Shown here in pieces: positions 1 through 41,670 of a DNA stretch of 64,000 nucleotides. The notes under the pieces were generated by a model. The model was not told where the DNA came from. It saw only the letters and a program-made list of their open reading frames with translations, and searched no databases. Made by a program: the position numbers and the translations under genes. Every line of letters begins with the position of its first letter. The first letter of the stretch is position 1. Origin of the DNA: Escherichia coli (GTDB lineage Bacteria; Pseudomonadota; Gammaproteobacteria; Enterobacterales; Enterobacteriaceae); the NCBI RefSeq assembly GCF_048403405.1, contig NZ_CP183129.1. The stretch is one strand, 5' to 3'.

Positions 1-1862
1 GCTATAGTGATCCCAATCAGGTTGAATTCTATACTTCGGGCCGCACTTCCAATGAAGCTGCCTTTCTTTATCAGCTTTTTGCTCGTGAATACGGGAGCAA
101 TAACTTCCCCGACTGCTCCAACATGTGCCATGAACCGACCAGTGTGGGTTTGGCAGCGAGTATCGGTGTAGGTAAAGGGACCGTGTTGCTGGAAGACTTT
201 GAGAAATGCGATTTAGTCATTTGCATTGGGCATAACCCTGGTACAAACCACCCTCGCATGTTGACTTCGTTGCGCGCTTTAGTGAAACGAGGAGCGAAAA
301 TGATCGCCATCAATCCTCTACAGGAACGTGGCCTGGAGCGATTTACCGCACCGCAAAACCCGTTTGAAATGCTGACGAACTCTGAGACTCAGTTGGCCAG
401 TGCCTACTACAACGTGCGCATTGGTGGTGATATGGCGTTGCTCAAGGGGATGATGCGCCTGTTAATTGAGCGCGATGATGCTGCAAGCGCCGCAGGTCGG
501 CCCTCATTGCTGGATGACGAATTTATTCAAACGCATACCGTCGGCTTTGACGAGCTACGCCGTGACGTTCTCAATTCCGAGTGGAAAGATATCGAGCGTA
601 TTTCTGGACTAAGTCAGACTCAAATCGCCGAACTGGCTGATGCATATGCCGCTGCCGAACGCACCATTATCTGTTACGGAATGGGGATCACTCAGCACGA
701 ACATGGTACCCAGAATGTACAGCAACTGGTCAATCTGCTGTTGATGAAAGGTAACATTGGCAAGCCTGGTGCGGGTATCTGCCCACTACGAGGTCACTCT
801 AATGTACAGGGCGACCGAACCGTCGGTATCACCGAGAAACCGTCTGCAGAGTTTCTGGCTCGCCTGGGTGAGCGCTATGGTTTCACCCCACCTCATGCAC
901 CTGGACATGCTGCAATTGCCAGCATGCAAGCAATATGTACGGGGCAGGCTCGAGCATTGATCTGCATGGGGGGCAACTTTGCACTGGCAATGCCAGATCG
1001 GGAAGCGAGCGCTGTACCGTTAACACAATTAGATCTGACGGTACACGTAGCCACTAAGCTTAACCGCTCTCATCTGCTGACCGCACGGCATAGCTATATT
1101 CTGCCGGTTCTGGGACGCAGCGAGATTGACATGCAAAAAAGCGGTGCGCAGGCGGTAACCGTTGAGGATTCAATGTCGATGATTCATGCCTCGCGTGGCG
1201 TGTTAAAACCCGCCGGTGTAATGCTGAAATCAGAGTGTGCAGTGGTCGCGGGAATCGCGCAGGCAGCACTACCCCAGAGCGTGGTAGCCTGGGAGTATCT
1301 GGTGGAAGATTATGATCGCATTCGCAATGACATTGAAGCTGTGCTGCCAGAGTTCGCCGACTATAACCAGCGCATCCGTCATCCCGGTGGTTTTCACCTG
1401 ATAAATGCAGCTGCTGAAAGGCGCTGGATGACGCCGTCAGGTAAGGCTAATTTCATTACCAGTAAAGGGCTGTTAGAAGATCCCTCTTCAGCGTTTAACA
1501 GTAAGCTAGTCATGGCGACAGTACGCAGTCACGATCAGTACAACACGACGATTTATGGTATGGATGATCGCTATCGAGGGGTATTCGGTCAACGAGATGT
1601 GGTCTTTATGAGTGCTAAACAAGCTAAAATTTGCCGTGTAAAAAACGGCGAAAGAGTTAATCTTATTGCGCTTACGCCAGACGGTAAGCGAAGCTCACGC
1701 CGCATGGATAGATTAAAAGTGGTCATTTACCCTATGGCTGACCGCTCACTGGTGACCTATTTTCCAGAATCGAATCACATGCTAACACTTGATAACCACG
1801 ATCCATTAAGTGGCATTCCTGGCTATAAAAGTATTCCGGTTGAATTAGAACCATCAAATTAA
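1..1862 (+). CDS. ydeP: Molybdopterin oxidoreductase YdeP (acid-resistance protein), 5'-partial; reading frame is open from window start
   Basis: Frame open from nt 3 to stop at 1862; 579-aa ORF-track product resembles formate-dehydrogenase-like molybdopterin oxidoreductases; position upstream of safA-ydeO matches E. coli. Confidence 0.85.
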
Positions 1863-1875
1863 TTCGCCTCCTCAT

Positions 1876-1906
1876 TTCTTCTGCTGTCATCCGCACAGCA
1901 GAAGAA
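1876..1906 (+). terminator. Hairpin downstream of ydeP (12-bp perfect stem ttcttctgctgt/acagcagaagaa, 7-nt loop)
   Basis: Perfect inverted repeat read directly; followed by a T-containing tract. Confidence 0.5.
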
Positions 1907-1980
1907 TTCCTCATTGACCATTGTCGCGCAATTTACTCACATGTGCTAAATTAAACTGCTCGTTATAAGATATATACCTC

Positions 1981-1998
1981 CGCCTACAGCTGTAAGAA
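1981..1998 (+). promoter_or_regulatory. Candidate EvgA box (cgCCTACA-gc-TGTAAGAA) upstream of safA-ydeO
   Basis: Inverted repeat resembling the EvgA consensus as I recall it (TTCYTACA-N2-TGTARGAA); located about 110 bp upstream of safA. Confidence 0.45.
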
Positions 1999-2109
1999 AC
2001 TCCGCTCAGTACTGAAGCGCCAGTCCTATTTCCTCTATTCTCCAGCCTGTTATATTAAGCATACTGATTAACGATGCTTAACGTCATTCGTTTAATAAAC
2101 ACATTTGAA

Positions 2110-2307
2110 ATGCATGCGACCATAGTGAAAAATAAAATCACGCAAAGAGACAACTATAAAGGGATCATGTCTGTAATTGTGGTTGTCTTATTACTGACCC
2201 TTACATTGATAGCCATTTTTTCGGCAATTGATCAGCTGGGTATTTCAGAAATGGGTCGCATTGCAAGGGATCTTACACACTTCATTATCAATAGTTTGCA
2301 AGACTGA
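2110..2307 (+). CDS. safA: SafA, small membrane connector protein (65 aa)
   Basis: Internal Met of ORF 2074..2307 gives the 65-aa product MHATIVKNKITQRDNYKG... with one hydrophobic helix; sits immediately upstream of ydeO. Confidence 0.8.
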   Translation: MHATIVKNKITQRDNYKGIMSVIVVVLLLTLTLIAIFSAIDQLGISEMGRIARDLTHFIINSLQD

Positions 2308-2381
2308 AAATAAACAGCAAATTATAAATATGAAATGTTAAAAAAGTATCGATAAAAACTTTATTGTTTTAAGGAGATAAA

Positions 2382-3143
2382 ATGTCGCTCGTTTGTTCTG
2401 TTATATTTATTCATCATGCCTTCAACGCTAACATTTTAGATAAAGATTACGCCTTCTCTGACGGCGAGATCCTGATGGTAGATAACGCTGTTCGTACGCA
2501 TTTTGAACCTTATGAGCGGCATTTCAAAGAAATCGGATTTAATGAAAATACCATTAAAAAATATCTACAATGCACTAACATCCAGACAGTGACGGTGCCT
2601 GTTCCTGCGAAGTTTTTACGTGCTTCAAATGTACCGACTGGATTGCTTAATGAAATGATTGCTTATCTCAACTCGGAAGAACGCAATCATCATAATTTTT
2701 CGGAACTTTTGCTTTTTTCTTGCCTATCTATTTTTGCCGCATGCAAAGGTTTCATTACACTATTAACTAACGGTGTGCTATCCGTTTCTGGGAAAGTGAG
2801 AAATATTGTCAACATGAAGCTGGCGCACCCATGGAAGCTGAAAGATATTTGTGACTGCCTGTACATCAGTGAAAGCCTGTTGAAGAAAAAACTTAAGCAA
2901 GAGCAAACGACATTCTCACAGATTCTTTTAGATGCCAGAATGCAGCACGCAAAAAATTTGATACGAGTAGAAGGTTCAGTTAATAAAATTGCCGAACAAT
3001 GTGGTTATGCCAGTACATCTTATTTTATTTATGCGTTCCGCAAACATTTCGGCAACAGTCCGAAGAGAGTTTCTAAGGAGTACCGTTGTCAAAGGCACAC
3101 GGGAATAAATACGGGCAACACGATGAATGCTTTAGCTATTTGA
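2382..3143 (+). CDS. ydeO: AraC-family acid-resistance transcriptional regulator YdeO
   Basis: 253-aa ORF with C-terminal AraC-type HTH (…YASTSYFIYAFRKHFGNSP…); synteny with safA. Confidence 0.9.
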   Translation: MSLVCSVIFIHHAFNANILDKDYAFSDGEILMVDNAVRTHFEPYERHFKEIGFNENTIKKYLQCTNIQTVTVPVPAKFLRASNVPTGLLNEMIAYLNSEERNHHNFSELLLFSCLSIFAACKGFITLLTNGVLSVSGKVRNIVNMKLAHPWKLKDICDCLYISESLLKKKLKQEQTTFSQILLDARMQHAKNLIRVEGSVNKIAEQCGYASTSYFIYAFRKHFGNSPKRVSKEYRCQRHTGINTGNTMNALAI

Positions 3144-3191
3144 TTATTTGCTAACGAGTAGTCAACCACACACGCTACGTAAGAATTAAAT

Positions 3192-3223
3192 GGGGCAGCC
3201 ATTTCCTGCCCCGCGTTGTTTTT
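3192..3223 (+). terminator. Rho-independent terminator after ydeO (ggggcag/ctgcccc stem followed by T-run)
   Basis: Hairpin and ttgttttt tract read directly. Confidence 0.6.
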
Positions 3224-3544
3224 AGGCGATATATTTATTGAAATAAATAAGTGACATTCATCACATATTTATGCATTTGCATAACCTGTTGCATGATTAT
3301 TTATGATCTCAATTCGGCATTTTATCAGTAAAATACAATAATTTATTAAATATCAATAGATTAGTTGTTTATCTGCGAGAAATTACTTAGTAGAATAGAA
3401 AGTAATGTCAACAGTTTATGGACTGTTATTTCTCTTTTTTTAGCTAAATCTGCTATCTCTTTATGTGACTAACTTCACTTACATCCACTTATTTCTCTTC
3501 GTAAAATTACTTTGGAATTAAGTACAATAAGAAGAGGAACATTT

Positions 3545-5227
3545 ATGAAGTCTGCATTAAAGAAAAGTGTCGTAAGTACCTCGATATCTTTGATACTGGC
3601 ATCTGGTATGGCTGCATTTGCTGCTCATGCGGCAGATGATGTAAAGCTGAAAGCAACCAAAACAAACGTCGCTTTCTCAGACTTTACGCCGACTGAATAC
3701 AGTACCAAAGGAAAGCCAAATATTATCGTACTGACCATGGATGATCTTGGTTATGGACAACTTCCTTTTGATAAGGGATCTTTTGACCCAAAAACTATGG
3801 AAAATCGTGAAGTTGTCGATACCTACAAAATAGGGATAGATAAAGCCATTGAAGCTGCGCAAAAATCAACGCCGACGCTCCTTTCATTAATGGATGAAGG
3901 CGTACGTTTTACTAACGGCTATGTGGCGCACGGTGTTTCCGGCCCCTCCCGTGCCGCAATAATGACCGGTCGAGCGCCCGCCCGCTTTGGTGTCTATTCC
4001 AATACCGATGCTCAGGATGGTATTCCGCTAACAGAAACTTTCCTGCCTGAATTATTCCAGAATCATGGTTATTACACTGCAGCAGTAGGTAAATGGCACT
4101 TGTCAAAAATCAGTAATGTGCCGGTACCGGAAGATAAACAAACGCGTGACTATCATGACAACTTCACCACATTTTCTGCGGAAGAATGGCAACCGCAAAA
4201 CCGTGGCTTTGATTACTTTATGGGATTCCACGCTGCAGGAACGGCATATTACAACTCCCCTTCACTGTTCAAAAACCGTGAACGCGTCCCCGCAAAAGGT
4301 TATATCAGCGATCAGTTAACCGATGAGGCAATTGGCGTTGTTGATCGTGCCAAAACACTTGACCAGCCTTTTATGCTTTACCTGGCTTATAATGCTCCGC
4401 ACCTGCCAAATGATAATCCTGCACCGGAGCAATATCAGAAGCAATTTAATACCGGTAGTCAAACAGCAGATAACTACTACGCTTCCGTTTATTCTGTTGA
4501 TCAGGGTGTAAAACGCATTCTCGAACAACTGAAGAAAAACGGACAGTATGACAATACTATTATTCTCTTTACCTCCGATAATGGTGCGGTTATCGATGGT
4601 CCTCTGCCGCTGAACGGGGCGCAAAAAGGCTATAAGAGTCAGACTTATCCTGGCGGTACTCACACCCCAATGTTTATGTGGTGGAAAGGAAAACTTCAAC
4701 CCGGTAATTATGACAAGCTGATTTCCGCAATGGATTTCTACCCGACAGCTCTTGATGCAGCCGATATCAGCATTCCAAAAGACCTTAAGCTGGATGGCGT
4801 TTCCTTGCTGCCGTGGTTGCAAGATAAGAAACAAGGCGAGCCACATAAAAATCTGACCTGGATAACCTCTTATTCTCACTGGTTTGACGAGGAAAATATT
4901 CCATTCTGGGATAATTACCACAAATTTGTCCGCCATCAGTCAGACGATTACCCGCATAACCCCAACACCGAGGACTTAAGCCAATTCTCTTATACGGTGA
5001 GAAATAACGATTATTCGCTTGTCTATACAGTAGAAAACAATCAGTTAGGTCTCTACAAACTGACGGATCTACAGCAAAAAGATAACCTTGCCGCCGCCAA
5101 TCCGCAGGTCGTTAAAGAGATGCAAGGCGTGGTAAGAGAGTTTATCGACAGCAGCCAGCCACCGCTTAGCGAAGTAAATCAGGAGAAGTTTAACAATATC
5201 AAGAAAGCACTAAGCGAAGCGAAATAA
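3545..5227 (+). CDS. ydeN: Periplasmic sulfatase YdeN (Ser/Cys-type sulfatase, signal peptide)
   Basis: 560 aa from the MKSALKK start; N-terminal signal peptide; sulfatase motifs (…VSGPSRAAIMTGR…); preceded by aagaggaa RBS. Confidence 0.9.
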   Translation: MKSALKKSVVSTSISLILASGMAAFAAHAADDVKLKATKTNVAFSDFTPTEYSTKGKPNIIVLTMDDLGYGQLPFDKGSFDPKTMENREVVDTYKIGIDKAIEAAQKSTPTLLSLMDEGVRFTNGYVAHGVSGPSRAAIMTGRAPARFGVYSNTDAQDGIPLTETFLPELFQNHGYYTAAVGKWHLSKISNVPVPEDKQTRDYHDNFTTFSAEEWQPQNRGFDYFMGFHAAGTAYYNSPSLFKNRERVPAKGYISDQLTDEAIGVVDRAKTLDQPFMLYLAYNAPHLPNDNPAPEQYQKQFNTGSQTADNYYASVYSVDQGVKRILEQLKKNGQYDNTIILFTSDNGAVIDGPLPLNGAQKGYKSQTYPGGTHTPMFMWWKGKLQPGNYDKLISAMDFYPTALDAADISIPKDLKLDGVSLLPWLQDKKQGEPHKNLTWITSYSHWFDEENIPFWDNYHKFVRHQSDDYPHNPNTEDLSQFSYTVRNNDYSLVYTVENNQLGLYKLTDLQQKDNLAAANPQVVKEMQGVVREFIDSSQPPLSEVNQEKFNNIKKALSEAK

Positions 5228-5239
5228 CTAAACCTTCAT

Positions 5240-5265
5240 GCGGCGGAATTTTCCGCCGCCTTATT
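5240..5265 (+). terminator. Hairpin between ydeN and ydeM (gcggcgga/tccgccgc stem)
   Basis: Perfect 8-bp stem with 4-nt loop followed by cttatt; lies in the 51-bp gap before ydeM. Confidence 0.45.
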
Positions 5266-5278
5266 GAGCGAGATAGCG

Positions 5279-6436
5279 ATGCACGTTACAGCCAAGCCCT
5301 CCAGTTTTCAATGTAATCTCAAATGTGATTACTGTTTTTACCTTGAAAAAGAGTCGCAGTTTACTCATGAAAAATGGATGGATGACAGCACTCTGAAAGA
5401 GTTCATCAAACAATATATCGCAGCGTCTGGCAATCAGGTCTATTTTACCTGGCAAGGCGGTGACCCCACTCTGGCTGGCCTGGATTTTTTCCGTAAAGTT
5501 ATTCACTATCAACAACGCTATGCAGGCCAAAAACGTATTTTTAATGCATTACAAACGAATGGCATTTTATTGAGTAATGAATGGTGTGCCTTTCTCAAAG
5601 AACATGAGTTTCTGGTTGGTATCTCGATCGATGGATCCCAGGAGCTACATGACCGTTACAGACGCAGTAATTCTGGTAACGGTACTTTTGCAAAAGTGAT
5701 AGCAGCCATCGAGCGTCTGAAATCATATCAAGTAGAGTTTAATACGTTAACCGTCATTAATAACGTCAATGTCCATTACCCTCTTGAGGTTTATCATTTT
5801 TTAAAATCTATCGGCAGTAAACATATGCAATTTATCGAATTGCTAGAAACCGGGACGCCGAATATTGATTTCAGTGGTCATAGTGAGAACACATTCCGTA
5901 TCATTGATTTTTCTGTGCCTCCTACGGCTTATGGCAAGTTTATGTCGACCATTTTTATGCAATGGGTTAAAAACGATGTGGGTGAAATTTTCATCCGTCA
6001 GTTTGAAAGCTTTGTCAGCCGTTTTTTGGGGAATGGGCATACCAGTTGTATTTTCCAGGAGTCCTGCAAGGATAATCTGGTTGTTGAAAGTAATGGAGAC
6101 ATTTACGAATGCGACCATTTTGTCTATCCACAGTACAAAATTGGAAACATTAATAAATCTGAACTTAAAACGATGAACAGTGTACAACTGACAGCGCAAA
6201 AAAAACGGATTTCAGCGAAATGTCAGCAATGTGCATATAAACCTATCTGCAATGGCGGTTGCCCTAAGCATCGTATTACTAAAGTAAACAATGAGACTGT
6301 TTCCTATTTTTGCGAAGGTTATAAAATCCTTTTTTCAACCATGGTACCTTATATGAACGCCATGGTGGAGTTAGCCAAGAACAGAGTACCGCTTTACCAC
6401 ATTATGGATGTTGCAAAACAAATGGAGAATAATTAA
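5279..6436 (+). CDS. ydeM: Anaerobic sulfatase-maturating enzyme homolog YdeM (radical SAM, SPASM domain)
   Basis: 385 aa from MHVTAK; CxxxCxxC-type radical-SAM cysteine cluster ([10 protein letters not shown]) and C-terminal Cys-rich SPASM region; adjacent to sulfatase ydeN. Confidence 0.88.
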
Positions 6437-6726
6437 TAACGCTCCTTCTTTGCTCCAGTCTTAGCCTCCGTCTTATGACCTTAACAAAGCACCCGACATA
6501 AATTCCTGTTGGGTGTTTCGTCATAATCATCTTCCCTTGCGAAAATTCTGGCTTACGTGGCATGCGTCAGGGCATTAGCAATACCCTTGATTATCAATAG
6601 CATAACCGTAACCATTGAAAATAAATAATTTCTTTATATTTCAAAATGTTAAATGACACTTAAATAAATTTCATCAGTAAATCATTGCCATAGATAATCA
6701 TTGGATGGCACAATCAATTTTCGCTA

Positions 6727-8412
6727 ATGATAACCATTCCCATTACGTTTCGTATGTTGATAGCAAAGTATCTCTGTCTGCTGAAGCCCTTTTGGCTGCG
6801 TAAGAATAATAAAACTTCAGTGCTGTTAATCATTATTATCCTCGCCATGATCCTTGGCGTGGTTAAAATTCAGGTCTGGTTAAACGACTGGAATAATGAT
6901 TTTTTCAATGCGCTAAGCCAGAAAGAAACCAATAAGCTTTGGCAGCTTGTCCTTTGGTTCCCTGCCCTGCTGGGGATCTTTGTATTAATATCCGTAAACA
7001 AAACATGGTTAATTAAACTGCTGACTATTCGCTGGCGCGAATGGTTAACAGATTACTACCTTAATCGGTGGTTTGCAGATAAAAACTACTACTTCACGCA
7101 GATCTACGGCGAGCATAAAAATACAGATAACCCTGACCAACGTATCGCTGAAGACATTCTCTTACTGATCAGCAAAACGCTCAGTCTTTCATTTGGCTTC
7201 ATCCAGTCACTTAGCATGCTGATCACCTTTACCGTTATTCTTTGGCAAAGCGCGGGTACGCTCTCATTCACTGTTGGTGGAACAGAATGGAATATCCAGG
7301 GGTATATGGTCTATACCGTTGTGCTCATTGTGATCGGTGGAACTTTATTTACTCATAAGGTTGGTAAACGTATTCGTCCGCTTAATGTGGAAAAGCAACG
7401 TAGCGAAGCGACATTTCGAACTAATCTTGTGCAGCATAATAAGCAGGCTGAACTGATTGCGCTAAGCAATGCTGAGTCTCTACAACGCCAGGAGTTGAGC
7501 GACAATTTTCATACCATTAAAGAGAACTGGCATCGTTTAATGAATCGTCAGCGCTGGCTTGATTACTGGCAGAATATTTATTCGCGCTCGCTTAGCGTTC
7601 TTCCCTACTTTCTGTTATTGCCACAGTTTATTAGCGGACAGATCAATCTGGGCGGACTGATGAAATCGCGCCAGGCATTTATGCTGGTATCGAACAATTT
7701 AAGCTGGTTTATTTATAAATATGACGAACTTGCTGAACTGGCTGCGGTTATCGATCGTTTGTATGAGTTCCATCAACTCACCGAACAGCGCCCTACGAAT
7801 AAGCCTAAAAATTGCCAACATGCGGTACAAGTGGCTGACGCGAGTATTCGTACTCCTGATAATAAGATCATATTAGAGAACCTGAACTTTCATGTTTCGC
7901 CAGGCAAATGGCTATTACTGAAAGGTTACTCTGGTGCGGGAAAAACCACACTGCTTAAAACATTATCCCACTGCTGGCCGTGGTTCAAAGGTGATATTTC
8001 TTCTCCTGCTGACAGTTGGTATGTGTCACAAACACCGTTAATCAAAACCGGCTTACTGAAAGAGATTATTTGTAAAGCACTTCCCCTGCCCGTAGACGAT
8101 AAATCGTTGAGCGAAATACTGCATCAGGTTGGTCTGGGGAAATTGGCTGCGCGTATTCATGACCACGATCGCTGGGGAGATATTCTTTCCAGCGGCGAAA
8201 AACAACGTATCGCCCTGGCACGATTAATTTTACGACGTCCGAAATGGATATTTCTTGACGAAACTACCTCTCATCTTGAGGAACAAGAGGCTATCCGCTT
8301 ACTGCGTTTAGTGCGTGAAAAACTACCCACAAGCGGCGTCATTATGGTTACACATCAACCCGGTGTCTGGAACCTGGCTGATGATATTTGTGACATTAGC
8401 GCGGTTTTATAA
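6727..8412 (+). CDS. yddA: ABC transporter YddA (fused permease/ATPase)
   Basis: 561 aa; N-terminal TM region and C-terminal ATPase with Walker A (GYSGAGKTT) and ABC signature (LSSGEKQR). Confidence 0.9.
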   Translation: MITIPITFRMLIAKYLCLLKPFWLRKNNKTSVLLIIIILAMILGVVKIQVWLNDWNNDFFNALSQKETNKLWQLVLWFPALLGIFVLISVNKTWLIKLLTIRWREWLTDYYLNRWFADKNYYFTQIYGEHKNTDNPDQRIAEDILLLISKTLSLSFGFIQSLSMLITFTVILWQSAGTLSFTVGGTEWNIQGYMVYTVVLIVIGGTLFTHKVGKRIRPLNVEKQRSEATFRTNLVQHNKQAELIALSNAESLQRQELSDNFHTIKENWHRLMNRQRWLDYWQNIYSRSLSVLPYFLLLPQFISGQINLGGLMKSRQAFMLVSNNLSWFIYKYDELAELAAVIDRLYEFHQLTEQRPTNKPKNCQHAVQVADASIRTPDNKIILENLNFHVSPGKWLLLKGYSGAGKTTLLKTLSHCWPWFKGDISSPADSWYVSQTPLIKTGLLKEIICKALPLPVDDKSLSEILHQVGLGKLAARIHDHDRWGDILSSGEKQRIALARLILRRPKWIFLDETTSHLEEQEAIRLLRLVREKLPTSGVIMVTHQPGVWNLADDICDISAVL

Positions 8413-33252: not shown

Positions 33253-33397
33253 GAGGCCTTTGCTGCGACTGCCATGTTCGGGTCGCAGCATCGCACACTC
33301 TCCAACATGAAATGGCTAAATGGATTATTGTTGCGTAGGAAGGAACAATAATGATAGTGTTCCTGGTGAAGGAACGCTACTGAGAGTAAAGACACTA

Positions 33398-33682
33398 ATG
33401 AAAATGGCCAATCATCCCCGCCCGGGGGACATTATTCAGGAATCACTGGACGAACTTAATGTCAGCCTGCGCGAGTTTGCCAGAGCAATGGAAATTGCGC
33501 CCTCAACGGCAAGCCGATTGCTGACCGGAAAAGCAGCTTTGACACCAGAAATGGCGATTAAACTTTCCGTGGTGATCGGCAGTTCGCCGCAAATGTGGCT
33601 GAATCTGCAAAACGCCTGGAGTCTGGCAGAGGCAGAAAAAACGGTGGATGTGTCGCGATTACGCCGTCTGGTTACGCAATAA
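33398..33682 (+). CDS. yddM: HigA/VapI-like HTH (XRE-family) protein YddM
   Basis: About 94 aa from [14 protein letters not shown]; the exact start is uncertain (ORF track begins at 33320). Confidence 0.7.
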
Positions 33683-33690
33683 ATAAATAT

Positions 33691-33714
33691 CCTCCGGCAT
33701 AGCCGGAGGTTTTT
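33691..33714 (+). terminator. Hairpin cctccggc-ata-gccggagg plus ttttt after yddM (may alternatively be an IS200 end structure)
   Basis: Perfect 8-bp stem plus T-run. Confidence 0.55.
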
Positions 33715-33790
33715 CAAATGCGCCTGTAAGGCTCTGTTACCAGCCGCGCCCTAACAGGCGCATACGATCTGACATTTGCATTCAACTTCG

Positions 33791-34249
33791 TTACTTACGG
33801 CCCGTAAACGGGCTGCCCGGATAGGGAATCGATAACTGCTCCCCCATTTTATCCTCTTCAAGCTGGTGCTTTATGTAGTCCTGTATCTTCGCCGTGTTCT
33901 TACCCACCGTATCGACATAGTACCCTCGGCACCAGAACTCCCTGTTTCTGTATTTGAATTTCAAATCCCCAAACTGCTCGTAAAGCATCAGACTGCTTTT
34001 CCCTTTCAGATATCCCATAAAGCCGGATACGCTCATTTTGGGTGGGATTTCCACAAGCATATGGATATGATCTGCGCAGCACTCTGCTTCCAGAATCCGT
34101 ACGCTTTTCCACTCACACAGCTTTCTCAAAATACTGCCTATCGCCCTACGCTTCTCTCCGTAAAACGCCAGTCTTCGGTATTTCGGCGCAAAAACTATGT
34201 GATATTTACAGTTCCAGCGGGTGTGCGCTAAGCTCTTTTCGTCCCCCAT
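33791..34249 (-). CDS. tnpA: IS200 transposase TnpA (Y1 HUH, 152 aa)
   Basis: MGDEKSLAHTRWNCKYHIVFAPKYRR…; contains the HUH motif (DHIHML) and a catalytic-Tyr region typical of IS200 TnpA. Confidence 0.88.
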   Translation of the reverse strand: MGDEKSLAHTRWNCKYHIVFAPKYRRLAFYGEKRRAIGSILRKLCEWKSVRILEAECCADHIHMLVEIPPKMSVSGFMGYLKGKSSLMLYEQFGDLKFKYRNREFWCRGYYVDTVGKNTAKIQDYIKHQLEEDKMGEQLSIPYPGSPFTGRK

Positions 34250-34387
34250 TGGGACCCCCTTTTGATTTCTTGTTTGACACTTGCAGTTGCCAGACCGCAA
34301 GGTGTTTTAACAAATCAAAAGGGGTTTTAATAACTGGCTCAAAGCTGAAAGCTTTCCGGAACCCCCAGCCTAGCTGGGGGTTTTCTG

Positions 34388-34422
34388 TGCACAAAAAAAT
34401 GGCGCTTCTTAAAGCGCCATTT
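34388..34422 (-). terminator. Rho-independent terminator of fdnGHI (aatggcgctt/aagcgccatt stem; T7 run on the minus strand)
   Basis: 10-bp stem followed by ttttttt in the minus-strand sense, just downstream of the fdnI stop. Confidence 0.7.
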
Positions 34423-34444
34423 TCAGCTTAAAGTTCAAAAGAGA

Positions 34445-35098
34445 TTATATCCCTTCTTCACTCTCTTTTTTCGCTTCTGCCTTCTCGATTTCACGATACC
34501 AGCGCGGATGGTGTTTCTTCGCCCAGCGACGGCTCACCTTCCCTTCGATCATCCCTTTAATCGATCCTTTCACCCAGAATGCCATATACATATGGATCAG
34601 GATGGCGTGGATCAGGATGATACCCGCAGCCGCGTGAATCAGCAGGCTGTAGCGAACAACCTGCATCGGGAAGTACTGCGCAAAGTACGGACGCCAGATA
34701 ATCACCCCGGTCACCAGCAGCACGAAAATCATGCTCATGATCGACCAGAACATCATCTTTTGCCCGGCGTTGTACTTACCGACATCCGCCACTTTGTGCT
34801 CATTGCCTTTTAATACTTCGACAATGTTCAACAGCCACGGAATATCTTTCTTATCCGGGATGTTGTGATGCACAAAACGCACAAACATAAACATCAGCGC
34901 GACGAAAATCGCAATGCCGAAGAACGGGTGCAAAATGCGTCCCATCTGCGGCGTACCGAAGGTTTGCGTCAGCCATTGCAGCGTCGGGAAGAAGAATGAA
35001 ATCCCGGACAGCGCCACCAGGAAGAAGCAAATCACCACGGTCCAGTGACAGGCGCGATCAATAAATTTGGTGCGCACAATCATTTTCGACTTACTCAT
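34445..35098 (-). CDS. fdnI: Formate dehydrogenase-N gamma subunit (cytochrome b556)
   Basis: 217 aa from [12 protein letters not shown]; membrane cytochrome b. Confidence 0.93.
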
Positions 35099-39266: not shown

Positions 39267-40148
39267 ATGACACGACAAAAAGCAACGCTCATAGGGCTAA
39301 TAGCGATCGTCCTGTGGAGCACGATGGTAGGATTGATTCGCGGTGTCAGTGAGGGGCTCGGCCCGGTCGGCGGTGCAGCTGCTATCTATTCATTAAGCGG
39401 GCTGCTGTTAATCTTCACGGTTGGATTTCCGCGTATTCGGCAGATCCCGAAAGGCTATTTACTCGCCGGGTGTCTGTTATTCGTCAGCTATGAAATCTGT
39501 CTGGCGCTTTCCTTAGGATATGCGGCGACCCGTCATCAGGCGATTGAAGTGGGTATGGTGAACTATCTGTGGCCCAGCCTGACAATTCTCTTTGCCATTC
39601 TGTTTAATGGTCAGAAAACCAACTGGCTGATTGTACCAGGATTATTATTAGCCCTGGTTGGCGTCTGCTGGGTGTTAGGTGGTGACAATGGATTACATTA
39701 TGATGAAATCATCAATAATATCACCACCAGCCCATTGAGTTATTTCCTGGCGTTTATTGGTGCGTTTATCTGGGCAGCCTACTGCACAGTAACGAATAAA
39801 TACGCACGCGGATTTAACGGAATTACCGTTTTTGTCCTGCTAACGGGAGCAAGTCTGTGGGTTTACTATTTTCTCACGCCACAACCAGAAATGGTATTTA
39901 GCACGCCAGTCATGATTAAACTCATCTCTGCGGCATTTACCTTAGGATTTGCTTATGCTGCATGGAACGTCGGTATATTACATGGCAACGTCACCATTAT
40001 GGCGGTAGGTTCGTATTTTACGCCCGTCCTTTCCTCAGCGCTTGCAGCCGTGCTGCTCAGCGCCCCGCTGTCGTTCTCGTTCTGGCAAGGCGCGCTAATG
40101 GTCTGCGGCGGTTCCCTGCTCTGCTGGCTGGCGACACGTCGTGGCTAA
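39267..40148 (+). CDS. yddG: Aromatic amino acid exporter YddG (DMT superfamily)
   Basis: 293-aa polytopic membrane protein. Confidence 0.9.
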   Translation: MTRQKATLIGLIAIVLWSTMVGLIRGVSEGLGPVGGAAAIYSLSGLLLIFTVGFPRIRQIPKGYLLAGCLLFVSYEICLALSLGYAATRHQAIEVGMVNYLWPSLTILFAILFNGQKTNWLIVPGLLLALVGVCWVLGGDNGLHYDEIINNITTSPLSYFLAFIGAFIWAAYCTVTNKYARGFNGITVFVLLTGASLWVYYFLTPQPEMVFSTPVMIKLISAAFTLGFAYAAWNVGILHGNVTIMAVGSYFTPVLSSALAAVLLSAPLSFSFWQGALMVCGGSLLCWLATRRG

Positions 40149-40406
40149 AATAATTGTCGGGTCTACGGCCCGGCAGTTAATCAGATAAATTCCGACAATA
40201 TAAAAAAATAAATTTCAAATACCAGTAGTTCACCTTATATTTCATTTCGACTTCGATCACATATCGATAAATAATATTATTTCATCTATTTTTCTCATTG
40301 TTTTTAATCACCATTCTATTTTAAAAACAGTATGTCATTTATAAATGACGCCGTTTAAAATTCGTTTAGAAAATACGTTTAACGATAATTAAAAGGATTC
40401 TGTTAA

Positions 40407-41507
40407 ATGAAATTAAAAATAGTTGCGGTGGTTGTAACTGGTTTGTTAGCTGCGAACGTAGCACACGCTGCCGAAGTCTATAACAAGGATGGTAATAAAC
40501 TCGACCTTTATGGCAAGGTTACCGCTCTACGTTATTTTACTGATGATAAGCGTGACGATGGTGATAAAACTTATGCCCGTCTCGGCTTTAAAGGAGAAAC
40601 GCAAATCAATGATCAAATGATTGGTTTTGGTCACTGGGAATATGATTTTAAAGGCTATAACGATGAAGCCAACGGCTCGCGCGGTAACAAGACCCGTCTG
40701 GCCTATGCAGGTTTAAAAATTAGTGAATTTGGCTCTCTGGACTATGGTCGTAACTACGGTGTCGGCTATGACATTGGTTCATGGACCGATATGTTGCCAG
40801 AATTTGGTGGCGATACCTGGAGTCAGAAAGATGTCTTCATGACATACCGTACTACCGGTGTGGCAACCTATCGCAACTACGATTTCTTCGGCTTAATTGA
40901 AGGTCTGAACTTTGCCGCGCAATATCAAGGCAAAAATGAACGCACTGACAATGGCCATCTTTATGGTGCTGACTACACGCGTGCCAATGGTGACGGTTTC
41001 GGTATCTCCTCAACTTATGTTTATGATGGCTTTGGTATCGGTGCGGTGTATACCAAATCCGATCGGACAAATGCGCAGGAAAGAGCCGCTGCTAATCCTC
41101 TCAATGCCTCCGGTAAGAATGCAGAACTGTGGGCTACAGGTATAAAATATGATGCCAACAACATCTACTTTGCAGCTAATTACGCTGAAACATTAAACAT
41201 GACCACCTATGGCGATGGTTATATCTCTAACAAAGCACAAAGTTTTGAAGTAGTGGCACAATATCAATTCGACTTCGGCTTGCGCCCATCACTCGCTTAC
41301 CTGAAATCGAAAGGCAGAGATCTGGGCCGCTACGGCGACCAGGACATGATTGAGTATATCGACGTTGGTGCGACGTATTTCTTCAACAAAAATATGTCGA
41401 CCTATGTTGATTATAAAATCAACCTGATTGATGAAAGCGACTTTACCCGTGCCGTAGATATTCGCACCGATAACATCGTCGCAACGGGCATTACCTATCA
41501 GTTCTAA
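40407..41507 (+). CDS. yddL: OmpC/OmpF-family general porin, apparently intact (K-12 yddL position)
   Basis: 366 aa; signal peptide (…[23 protein letters not shown]); C-terminal …TGITYQF. Confidence 0.8.
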
Positions 41508-41518
41508 CATCCTCTCCT

Positions 41519-41547
41519 GACCAGCCCTTCTCTGGGCTGGTTTTTGA
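41519..41547 (+). terminator. Rho-independent terminator after the porin gene (ccagccc/gggctgg plus ttttt)
   Basis: Read directly. Confidence 0.7.
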
Positions 41548-41670
41548 TTTAAGTGCTGCTGTATGACTCCTTAAGTAAAAATGAGCAATTTTTGATATTT
41601 CTGGTCACTCACCTCAATTAATATTCTTCCATACCCTCCGGGGACATCTTACTATAATATTTATTGATGT

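What the first reader, a model, noticed from the sequence alone, without database searches (positions are those of the whole stretch)
33690..34440. IS200 copy inserted between yddM and the fdnGHI terminator
A complete IS200-type transposase gene with its characteristic upstream stem-loops sits immediately next to the fdnI terminator hairpin. As far as I recall K-12 has no IS200 here, so this is a strain-specific insertion. It is useful as a lineage marker and could affect expression of yddM or adhP, or termination of fdn.
Basis: partly seen in the sequence, partly recalled or inferred. Interest (0 to 1): 0.35.

Follow-up and report, generated by a model that had tools for sequence, protein, structure and literature searches.

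The report
Ordinary IS200 copy behind fdnI terminator
This is a complete, already-annotated copy of the small mobile element IS200, sitting exactly at the end of the transcription stop signal of the formate dehydrogenase operon; it is absent from K-12, present in about 6% of E. coli genomes, and probably harmless to its neighbours.

Summary
Window 33682-34392 (minus strand, 711 bp, plus one ambiguous A at 33681) is an intact IS200.

- **Parts:** a 152-aa Y1/HUH transposase gene (33791-34249), the full IS200 5'UTR/art200 RNA module (Rfam STnc490, 146 bits), a left-end terminator hairpin and a right-end hairpin.
- **Boundaries:** the hairpin at 33691-33709 is not yddM's own terminator. It is the IS200 right end.
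- **Empty sites:** MG1655 and other strains have no IS200 here.
- **Distribution:** 308 of 5426 complete E. coli genomes carry IS200 at this exact site and orientation. They carry two IS200 alleles that differ at 26-29 of 711 positions, and two junction types one base apart. It is therefore a poor simple lineage marker.
- **Neighbours:** fdnI keeps its hairpin and seven-T tract. yddM keeps its stop codon and gains the right-end hairpin as a replacement terminator. Effects on them are probably small.
- **Wider pattern:** 88 of 100 distinct IS200-type left ends from many bacteria sit directly after a GC-rich hairpin plus T-run, against 6% of matched T-runs. IS200 is found almost only behind terminators.

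Novelty: already known. Interest is low.

The parts
33681..34392 (-). IS200 element. The 711-bp block shared with other copies is 33682-34392 (GTGCAC...ATATTTATT in tnpA orientation). The A at 33681 is one extra base seen in this lineage and in L004, but not in L135-L137.
33691..33709 (.). Right-end subterminal hairpin CCTCCGGC-TAT-GCCGGAGG. It looks like a terminator on both strands: TTTTTC follows it on the + strand (yddM direction) and ATATTTATT follows it on the - strand (end of tnpA and of the IS).
   Evidence: (I5). Conserved in E. coli and Y. pestis copies.
33718..33763 (.). Second inverted repeat in the right end (14-nt arms, 93% complementary).
   Evidence: I2
33791..34249 (-). tnpA, a 152-aa Y1 HUH transposase. 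The HUH motif is in 'ADHIHML' and the catalytic Tyr in 'IQDYIKHQ'.
   Evidence: WP_000502112.1; aligns to 2ec2, 2f4f, 2a6m, 2xm3
34256..34324 (-). 5'UTR stem-loop whose 3' arm holds the Shine-Dalgarno sequence (AAAAGGGGG). It is the translation-blocking structure of IS200.
   Evidence: (I1). Role taken from Ellis 2015/2017.
34259..34382 (-). Match to Rfam RF01405 STnc490, the IS200 5'UTR / art200 antisense RNA module.
   Evidence: 146.4 bits, model positions 1-124 of 124
34360..34382 (.). Left-end hairpin AACCCCCAGC-TAG-GCTGGGGGTT. It is the bidirectional terminator of IS200. On the + strand it is followed by TTTTCTG, which would end art200.
   Evidence: (I6). Function from the literature.
34383..34392 (-). 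Left-end tip GTGCACAGAA. It and the next bases, which start the hairpin arm, read GAAAAC just 5' of the C-run of the hairpin. This is the candidate 'guide' that pairs with the T-run target. That role is inferred.
   Evidence: GAAAAC is conserved in nearly all loci. The analogy is to IS608 GL/CL.
34393..34423 (-). fdnI intrinsic terminator, which is the target and not part of the IS. The hairpin has 12-nt perfect arms. The seven-T tract (34393-34399 on the minus strand) ends exactly at the IS left end.
   Evidence: I4; -17.6 kcal/mol
33398..33682 (+). yddM, a HigA-like HTH antitoxin homologue. Its stop codon TAA is at 33680-33682. The last base of that stop codon coincides with the IS right end.
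34445..35098 (-). fdnI, the gamma subunit of formate dehydrogenase-N. It runs in the same direction as tnpA.

Best explanation
The feature is an intact member of the IS200 group of the IS200/IS605 family, an isoform about 96% identical to copies that RefSeq labels IS200C.

**Shown here**
- It lies at the 3' end of the seven-T tract of the fdnI intrinsic terminator, in the same direction as fdnGHI.
- In the 711-bp junction type there is no target duplication.

**Inferred from IS608 and ISDra2**
- The Y1/HUH transposase excised the top strand as a single-stranded circle. It pasted the circle 3' of a T-rich target on the lagging-strand template.

**My inference**
- The T-run is read by the conserved GAAAA just 5' of the left-end hairpin.
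- The terminator hairpin favours the site, either mechanically or because insertions there survive selection.

**Regulation, taken from Salmonella IS200.** All the sequence elements are present here.
- Read-through from fdn is stopped first by the fdnI terminator and then by the left-end hairpin.
- tnpA translation is blocked by the stem-loop that buries the ribosome-binding site.
- tnpA is also repressed by the antisense RNA art200.
- The copy is therefore nearly silent.

**Neighbours.** They are buffered. fdnI keeps its terminator. yddM keeps its stop codon and now ends at the right-end hairpin plus TTTTT.
For: **Identity**
- establish the RNA module, the Pfam domain and the catalytic motifs.
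- 96.3% identical to IS200C-labelled copies, 99.7% to another window-type copy, and 86.8% to Y. pestis IS1541.
- RefSeq annotates the ORF as an IS200/IS605 family transposase.

**Insertion point**
- Junction variants are.

**Intactness and selection**
- The two alleles differ at 17 synonymous and 4 non-synonymous positions in tnpA.

**Target rule**
- 10 of 10 E. coli sites and the Y. pestis sites lie directly after a hairpin plus T-run. In 7 of the 9 other E. coli sites the upstream gene is annotated in the same direction as tnpA.
- 88 of 100 unique left-end flanks have a GC-rich hairpin 3-9 nt upstream, and 97 of 100 are T-rich. Only 6% of T-run-matched controls and 0.9% of random positions have such a hairpin.

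**Structures**
-.

**Mechanism and regulation from the literature**
- Ellis 2015, 2017; IS608 guide and cleavage sites; lagging-strand template.

**Strand**
- fdnGHI is on the + strand of MG1655 at 1.547-1.552 Mb.
- From my own knowledge of where oriC and dif lie, this puts the IS top strand on the lagging-strand template.
Against: - No transposition, RNA or termination assay was possible. Activity and silence are inferred.
- The window's copy has one extra base at the right junction compared with 711-bp copies at the same site. The exact ends are therefore uncertain by 1 nt.
- The terminator association could come from purifying selection against insertions elsewhere, rather than from target choice.
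- The promoter scan found no sigma-70-like site. This fits a weak tnpA promoter but proves nothing.
- GC skew in the window is too noisy to confirm the replication direction.
Confidence: 0.9

Rival explanations
1. A single old insertion was inherited vertically in all 308 genomes. The two IS alleles at the site arose later, by gene conversion from other IS200 copies in each genome or by recombination between lineages.
For: - The position and orientation are the same in every case examined.
- The 1-nt junction variant occurs with both alleles. Conversion of the IS interior, leaving the junctions untouched, would produce exactly this pattern.
- Genomes carry up to 35 copies that could serve as donors.
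Against: - IS divergence is decoupled from flank divergence. L135 has 1.2% flank and 0.14% IS divergence. L004 has 1.0% flank and 3.7% IS divergence.
- A conversion tract would have to begin inside the terminal 44-52 bp of homology at each end.
- No mosaic of the two alleles appeared in the five occupied loci examined.
- The strong terminator targeting makes repeated hits plausible.
Confidence: 0.35
2. The copy is a dead relic. It is immobile and retained only by drift.
For: IS200 is notoriously dormant (Ellis 2015). No promoter-like site was found.
Against: - The ORF is intact and the catalytic HUH and Tyr residues are present.
- The two alleles differ at 17 synonymous and 4 non-synonymous positions.
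- Both ends and the whole 5'UTR module are complete.
- The same allele is found at other sites, for example cof|decR at 99.7% identity.
Confidence: 0.1
3. The copy is kept mainly as a small-RNA gene. As in Salmonella, art200 and the processed 5' end of tnpA would regulate host genes.
For: - The RNA module is the best-conserved part. The Rfam match is 146 bits, and only 1 of the 26 allele differences falls in the first 143 nt.
- The Salmonella precedent is and in the 2024 preprint listed.
Against: - No E. coli targets are known from the sources read here.
- tnpA itself is under purifying selection, which an RNA-only role does not explain.
Confidence: 0.15
4. It is a REP-associated tyrosine transposase (RAYT / TnpA-REP) locus rather than an insertion sequence.
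For: The Pfam family is the same. REP/BIME repeats occupy this very spacer in K-12.
Against: - The window copy has no REP flanks.
- The element is multi-copy and sits at different sites in different genomes.
- Its borders against the empty site are sharp.
- The Rfam IS200 leader is present.
Confidence: 0.01

Closest known systems
IS200 of Salmonella enterica / E. coli (IS200 group of the IS200/IS605 family; RefSeq label 'IS200C')
   Same: - It has a single tnpA of 152 aa.
- The left-end terminator hairpin is at nt 11-33 and the stem-loop that buries the ribosome-binding site at nt 69-137. Published positions are 12-34 and 69-138.
- The art200/STnc490 module is present.
- There are no terminal inverted repeats.
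- It is 96.3% identical in DNA to IS200C-labelled E. coli copies.
   Different: - It is 711 bp (712 with the extra base), against the 707 bp quoted for Salmonella IS200.
- It has 4 amino-acid differences from the common E. coli IS200C protein WP_000526135.1.
- PGAP names this allele only 'IS200/IS605 family transposase'.
IS1541 of Yersinia pestis
   Same: The architecture is the same, and so are the left-end and right-end hairpins and the terminal ...ATATTTATT. It shows the same habit of sitting after a hairpin plus T-run.
   Different: DNA identity is 86.8% over 710 bp, and there are 10 amino-acid differences. Head-to-tail tandem copies are seen in Y. pestis but not in the window.
IS608 (Helicobacter pylori) and ISDra2, the mechanistic models for the family
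   Same: - The Y1 HUH transposase fold is shared: phmmer gives E=3e-19 to 2a6m and 5e-16 to 2xm3.
- Both have subterminal hairpins.
- Both insert 3' of a short target that stays in the left flank.
- Neither makes a target duplication.
   Different: - IS608 and ISDra2 also carry tnpB.
- Their targets are TTAC and TTGAT. Here the apparent target is a T-run at the end of a terminator.
- The guide-to-target pairing for IS200 (GAAAA with TTTT) is my inference and has not been shown.
Group IIC introns
   Same: They also home to the 3' side of intrinsic-terminator stem-loops.
   Different: They are unrelated in mechanism: ribozyme-based retrohoming rather than DNA transposition by an HUH enzyme. The similarity is in behaviour only.

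Membership tests
IS200 group, IS200/IS605 family | Encodes a Y1 (single catalytic tyrosine) HUH transposase | tested here: met
   Pfam Y1_Tnp, E=7.9e-37, profile positions 2-121 of 121. The HUH motif 'HIH' and the Tyr in 'QDYIKHQ' align to 2ec2 and 2f4f.
IS200 group, IS200/IS605 family | tnpA only, no tnpB, about 0.7 kb | tested here: met
   711-712 bp is inserted relative to the empty site. The one ORF that matches a protein family is the 152-aa tnpA.
IS200 group, IS200/IS605 family | No terminal inverted repeats; a subterminal hairpin at each end | tested here: met
   The ends GTGCAC... and ...ATATTTATT are not inverted repeats of each other. The hairpins are at 34360-34382 and 33691-33709.
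IS200 group, IS200/IS605 family | No target-site duplication; inserts 3' of a short conserved target kept in the left flank | tested here: inconclusive
   Copies of the 711-bp type at this site (L135-L137) fit the 7-T empty site with no duplication. The window copy has one extra T/A at the right junction. That base could be part of the IS, a slippage product or a 1-nt duplication.
IS200 group, IS200/IS605 family | IS200-specific leader: left-end terminator, SD-sequestering stem-loop, art200 antisense RNA | tested here: met
   Rfam RF01405 matches full length at 146 bits. The fold has z=-5.3. Expression of the RNAs was not tested.
IS200 group, IS200/IS605 family | At least 95% DNA identity to a named ISfinder reference (the isoform rule, recalled from memory) | not testable with these tools
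   ISfinder is not available. As a proxy, identity is 96.3% to copies that PGAP labels IS200C.
IS200 group, IS200/IS605 family | Multi-copy, at different sites in different genomes (mobility) | tested here: met
   2063 of 5426 genomes have a copy covering at least 80% of the element, with up to 35 places per genome. Ten different flanking contexts were seen. Actual transposition was not tested.
RAYT / TnpA-REP (REPtron) | Single-copy tnpA flanked by REP/BIME repeats at a fixed locus | tested here: not met
   There are no REP flanks, and the element is multi-copy at variable loci.

The most novel reading that the evidence does not exclude
IS200-group elements may be terminator-homing transposons.
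- They would integrate at the last T's of the T-tract of intrinsic terminators.
- The conserved GAAAA 5' of the left-end hairpin would read the tract.
- The terminator hairpin would act as a mimic of the element's own right end, which is also a hairpin followed by T-rich bases.
- The fdnI terminator would then be a hot spot hit independently by two IS200 alleles, and IS200 presence at a site would be homoplastic.

[quoted passage not shown] I found no explicit statement of this target rule or of the guide pairing.
Probability: 0.3. Interest if true: 0.45.

Novelty: already known. Interest (0 to 1): 0.15.

Why it matters
**For this window, very little.** It is a routine, already-annotated insertion sequence at a polymorphic intergenic site, and it is predicted to be neutral for fdnGHI, yddM and adhP.

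**Two practical points follow.**
- IS200 presence at yddM|fdnI should not be used alone as a lineage marker. The site is occupied in 308 genomes, by two alleles and two junction types.
- Annotators should not call the hairpin at 33691-33709 a yddM terminator of host origin.

**The wider pattern is of moderate interest.** IS200-type elements from several phyla sit almost only behind intrinsic terminators. This would explain why such a dormant element persists harmlessly, and it suggests a testable target-recognition rule for IS200, whose target has been poorly defined.

Tried and rejected
- **RAYT/REPtron reading.** Rejected: no REP flanks and the element is multi-copy.
- **GC skew to confirm replication direction.** Uninformative over 64 kb. 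I relied instead on MG1655 coordinates plus textbook positions of oriC and dif.
- **Promoter scan.** It found none, against 1.9 expected by chance. This is no evidence either way.
- **Terminator scan.** It missed the fdnI terminator, because the stem extends into A-U pairs and uses up the T-tract. I confirmed the terminator by inverted-repeat search and folding.
- **Genome-contig scan.** E. coli sites were instead fetched one by one.
- **Odaert et al. 1998 on IS1541 insertion sites.** Not held in the library.
- **Literature searches for an explicit IS200 terminator-target statement.** Four searches found only the preprint read; a fifth search, on IS1541, added nothing useful.
- **Independent insertion versus gene conversion.** I tried to decide this from five occupied loci. 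The data are suggestive but not decisive.
- **Strand of the Rfam match.** The STnc490 match is on the tnpA-sense strand, although art200 is described as antisense. I could not resolve which strand the Rfam seed represents.

Full report
**What is there**

Between yddM (33398-33682, + strand) and fdnI (34445-35098, - strand) lies a 762-bp spacer. Its core is a 152-aa ORF on the minus strand (33791-34249).
- The ORF matches Pfam Y1_Tnp ('Transposase IS200 like') over the whole profile, E=7.9e-37.
- It aligns to solved IS200/IS605 transposases: 2ec2 at E=2e-23, IS608 TnpA 2a6m at 3e-19, ISDra2 2xm3 at 5e-16. The HUH motif (HIH) and the C-terminal tyrosine are conserved.
- Upstream of it, the Rfam model RF01405 (STnc490, the IS200 leader/art200 module) matches end to end at 34259-34382(-), 146 bits against a gathering score of 56.
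- The first 158 nt of the element fold into the two published IS200 structures. These are a perfect GC hairpin at nt 11-33 and a long stem-loop at nt 69-137 that buries the ribosome-binding site. The fold is -63.9 kcal/mol, z=-5.3. Published positions are 12-34 and 69-138.
- RefSeq annotates the identical sequence in strain TUM14771 as an IS200/IS605 family transposase.
- There is one copy in the window.

**Exact ends and target**

An empty site exists. In strain CUVET19-970 the spacer is 50 bp and reads ...GGTTACGCAATAAAAAAATGGCGCTTCTTAAAGCGCCATTTTCAGC.... Against it, the window carries 712 extra bases, with the junction ambiguous inside the A-run.

Ten E. coli copies at ten different sites and about twenty Y. 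pestis IS1541 copies share a constant block. It runs from GTGC(A/C)C... to ...GGAGGATATTTATT. This places the element at window 33682-34392, 711 bp.

Other genomes with IS200 at this same site (L135, L136, L137) lack the A at 33681. They fit the seven-T empty site exactly, with no target duplication. The window, L001 and L004 have one extra base.

Read in the direction of tnpA, the arrangement is:
- the fdnI terminator hairpin;
- TTTTTTT;
- the element, [GTGCAC...ATATTTATT];
- (T)ATTGCG, which is the complement of the end of yddM.

The element therefore sits at the very end of the T-tract of the fdnI terminator. That tract abuts the complement of yddM's stop codon. The stop codon TAA (33680-33682) is preserved.

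- The hairpin at 33691-33709 belongs to the IS right end. It is not a host yddM terminator.
- The fdnI terminator (34393-34423) is outside the IS.

**Comparison with K-12 and the species**

MG1655 has no IS200 here. Its 406-bp spacer holds two tandem 178-bp units, each made of a copy of the terminator hairpin plus a BIME. BLAST of the IS against that stretch finds nothing. Other strains have one unit (228 bp) or none (50 bp).

Across 5426 complete E. coli genomes:
- 2063 carry a copy covering at least 80% of the element, with a median of 2 matching places and up to 35 per genome.
- 308 carry the yddM|IS200 junction (one search gave 303 with a longer query).
- About ten genomes match the window at about 100% over 24 kb, among them MS 69-1, TUM1226 and TUM14771.
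- TUM14771 has 11 places matching IS200 on its chromosome.

**Is it a lineage marker?**

Only with care. Among the 308 junctions, 140 carry the window-type allele and 168 the IS200C-type allele. The two alleles differ at 26-29 of 711 positions. The one-base junction variant occurs with both alleles.

IS divergence is decoupled from flank divergence:

| Locus | Flank divergence from window | IS divergence from window |
|---|---|---|
| L135 | 1.2% | 0.14% |
| L004 | 1.0% | 3.7% |

Either the site was hit more than once, or the resident copy was overwritten by gene conversion. I could not decide between these from five loci. I lean to repeated insertion (about 0.55 to 0.35, the remainder undecided) because of the target rule described next.

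**Target rule**

In all nine other E. coli sites examined, the left end directly follows a GC-rich hairpin plus T-run. In seven of them an upstream gene is annotated in the same direction as tnpA: cof, gndA, lom, galU, mukB, a phage tail gene and an iro-island ORF. The same holds for Y. pestis IS1541.

It also holds for IS200-type elements sharing the left-end hairpin CCCCAGCTAGGCTGGGG in Oxalobacter, Mailhella, Desulfovibrio, Vibrio, Brenneria, Edwardsiella and in Bacillota, Saccharibacteria and Elusimicrobia MAGs.

Counts:
- Of 100 distinct left-end flanks, 97 are T-rich in the last six bases.
- 88 have a GC-rich stem ending 3-9 nt upstream.
- Among T-runs matched for composition in the same DNA, only 6% have such a stem.
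- Under a stricter terminator test, 77 of 91 flanks pass, against 0.9% of random positions.

A recent preprint reports the same enrichment statistically for the IS200/IS605 family. I found no explicit statement of the rule for IS200.

**How it most likely works**

*Shown here:* the anatomy, the insertion point, and the conservation of all regulatory elements.

*Taken from the family literature:*
- TnpA excises the top strand as a single-stranded circle. It pastes the circle 3' of a short target, which is recognised by base pairing with a 'guide' just 5' of the left-end hairpin (IS608: guide AAAG, target TTAC).
- Insertion is preferentially on the lagging-strand template.

*My inference:*
- In IS200 the conserved GAAAA(C) 5' of the left-end hairpin is the guide and TTTT is the target. 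The same motif precedes the right-end hairpin, and it is conserved in nearly every locus.
- The right end (hairpin plus ATATTTATT) looks like a terminator itself. This may be why terminators are accepted as targets.
- fdnGHI is on the + strand at 1.55 Mb in MG1655. By textbook positions of oriC and dif, that is co-directional with replication. This puts the IS top strand on the lagging-strand template, as expected.

*Regulation, as shown in Salmonella:*
- a weak promoter;
- a left-end hairpin that stops about 85% of incoming transcripts;
- a 20-fold translational block by the stem-loop;
- a 15-fold block by art200.

Here the fdnI terminator adds a further barrier upstream.

**Is the copy alive?**

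Probably. The ORF and both ends are intact. The two alleles differ at 17 synonymous but only 4 non-synonymous sites, which indicates purifying selection. The window-type allele occurs at other sites at 99.7% identity.

**Effect on neighbours**

Predicted to be small.
- fdnI keeps its hairpin (-17.6 kcal/mol) and seven U's.
- yddM loses direct access to the shared bidirectional terminator. Eight nt after its stop codon it meets the right-end hairpin followed by TTTTTC, which the scan flags as terminator-like on the + strand.
- adhP lies upstream of yddM and is untouched.

**Verdict**

The element is a known kind and is already annotated in public genomes. Interest is low. The terminator-homing pattern is the only part that may deserve follow-up.

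Noticed in passing
L138 (MG1655) 2493-2898; L003 884-1111: The yddM-fdnI spacer is a length-polymorphic hot spot. It is 50 bp in some strains, 228 bp in others and 406 bp in MG1655. The extra DNA is one or two tandem 178-bp units (98.4% identical to each other), each made of a copy of the terminator hairpin plus a BIME (two REPs).
   Followed up: partly
window 33681; L135/L136/L137 at the yddM|IS200 junction: There is a one-base polymorphism (711 or 712 bp) at the IS200 right junction. It occurs with both IS200 alleles at this site. Seven of ten E. coli copies have a T just after ...ATATTTATT, so the right-end cleavage point or the T-run split may vary by 1 nt.
   Followed up: partly
window 33253-33397, compared with rows H21-H26: In UTI89-like strains, a RelE/ParE-family toxin is among the features annotated under the match to this region. 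No such gene lies next to yddM in the window or in K-12, so yddM appears to be an orphan HigA-like antitoxin here.
   Followed up: no
L110, L111, L113 (Yersinia pestis NCTC5923): There are head-to-tail tandem IS1541 copies. The right end (...ATATTTATT) abuts the next left end (GTGCCC...) directly, which is the sequence expected of a circle junction.
   Followed up: partly
L084 (Dickeya undicola), around 700-716: A solo IS200 left-end hairpin is embedded in a perfect palindrome, GTCTATAGAAAACCCCCAGCTAGGCTGGGGGTTTTCTATAGAC. It sits between two terminator-like hairpins, with no transposase gene downstream. It may be a remnant or a miniature derivative.
   Followed up: no
L088-L098 (Ruminococcus MAG RUG14215), also L010, L024, L025, L066: The same 17-nt hairpin occurs at the end of a different repeated element (…GTTAAAGAAATAC-hairpin-GATGCTTATT). 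It appears in both orientations and often at contig ends. It lacks the IS200-type leader and is not preceded by terminators. It may be another IS200/IS605-family end.
   Followed up: no
window 34259-34382: The Rfam RF01405 (STnc490) model scores 146 bits on the tnpA-sense strand and only 23 bits on the opposite strand. The literature, however, describes STnc490/art200 as antisense to tnpA. The Rfam seed may be on the other strand.
   Followed up: no
summary: One of the 308 yddM|IS200 junctions is on a record typed as a plasmid. It may be a mis-assigned contig or a chromosomal segment captured on a plasmid.
   Followed up: no
window 1-8000 and 40001-48000: GC content drops to 0.43-0.44, against about 0.50-0.52 elsewhere in the window. 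A leucine-rich-repeat protein is annotated within 22-46 kb in matching genomes. These may be horizontally acquired segments.
   Followed up: no
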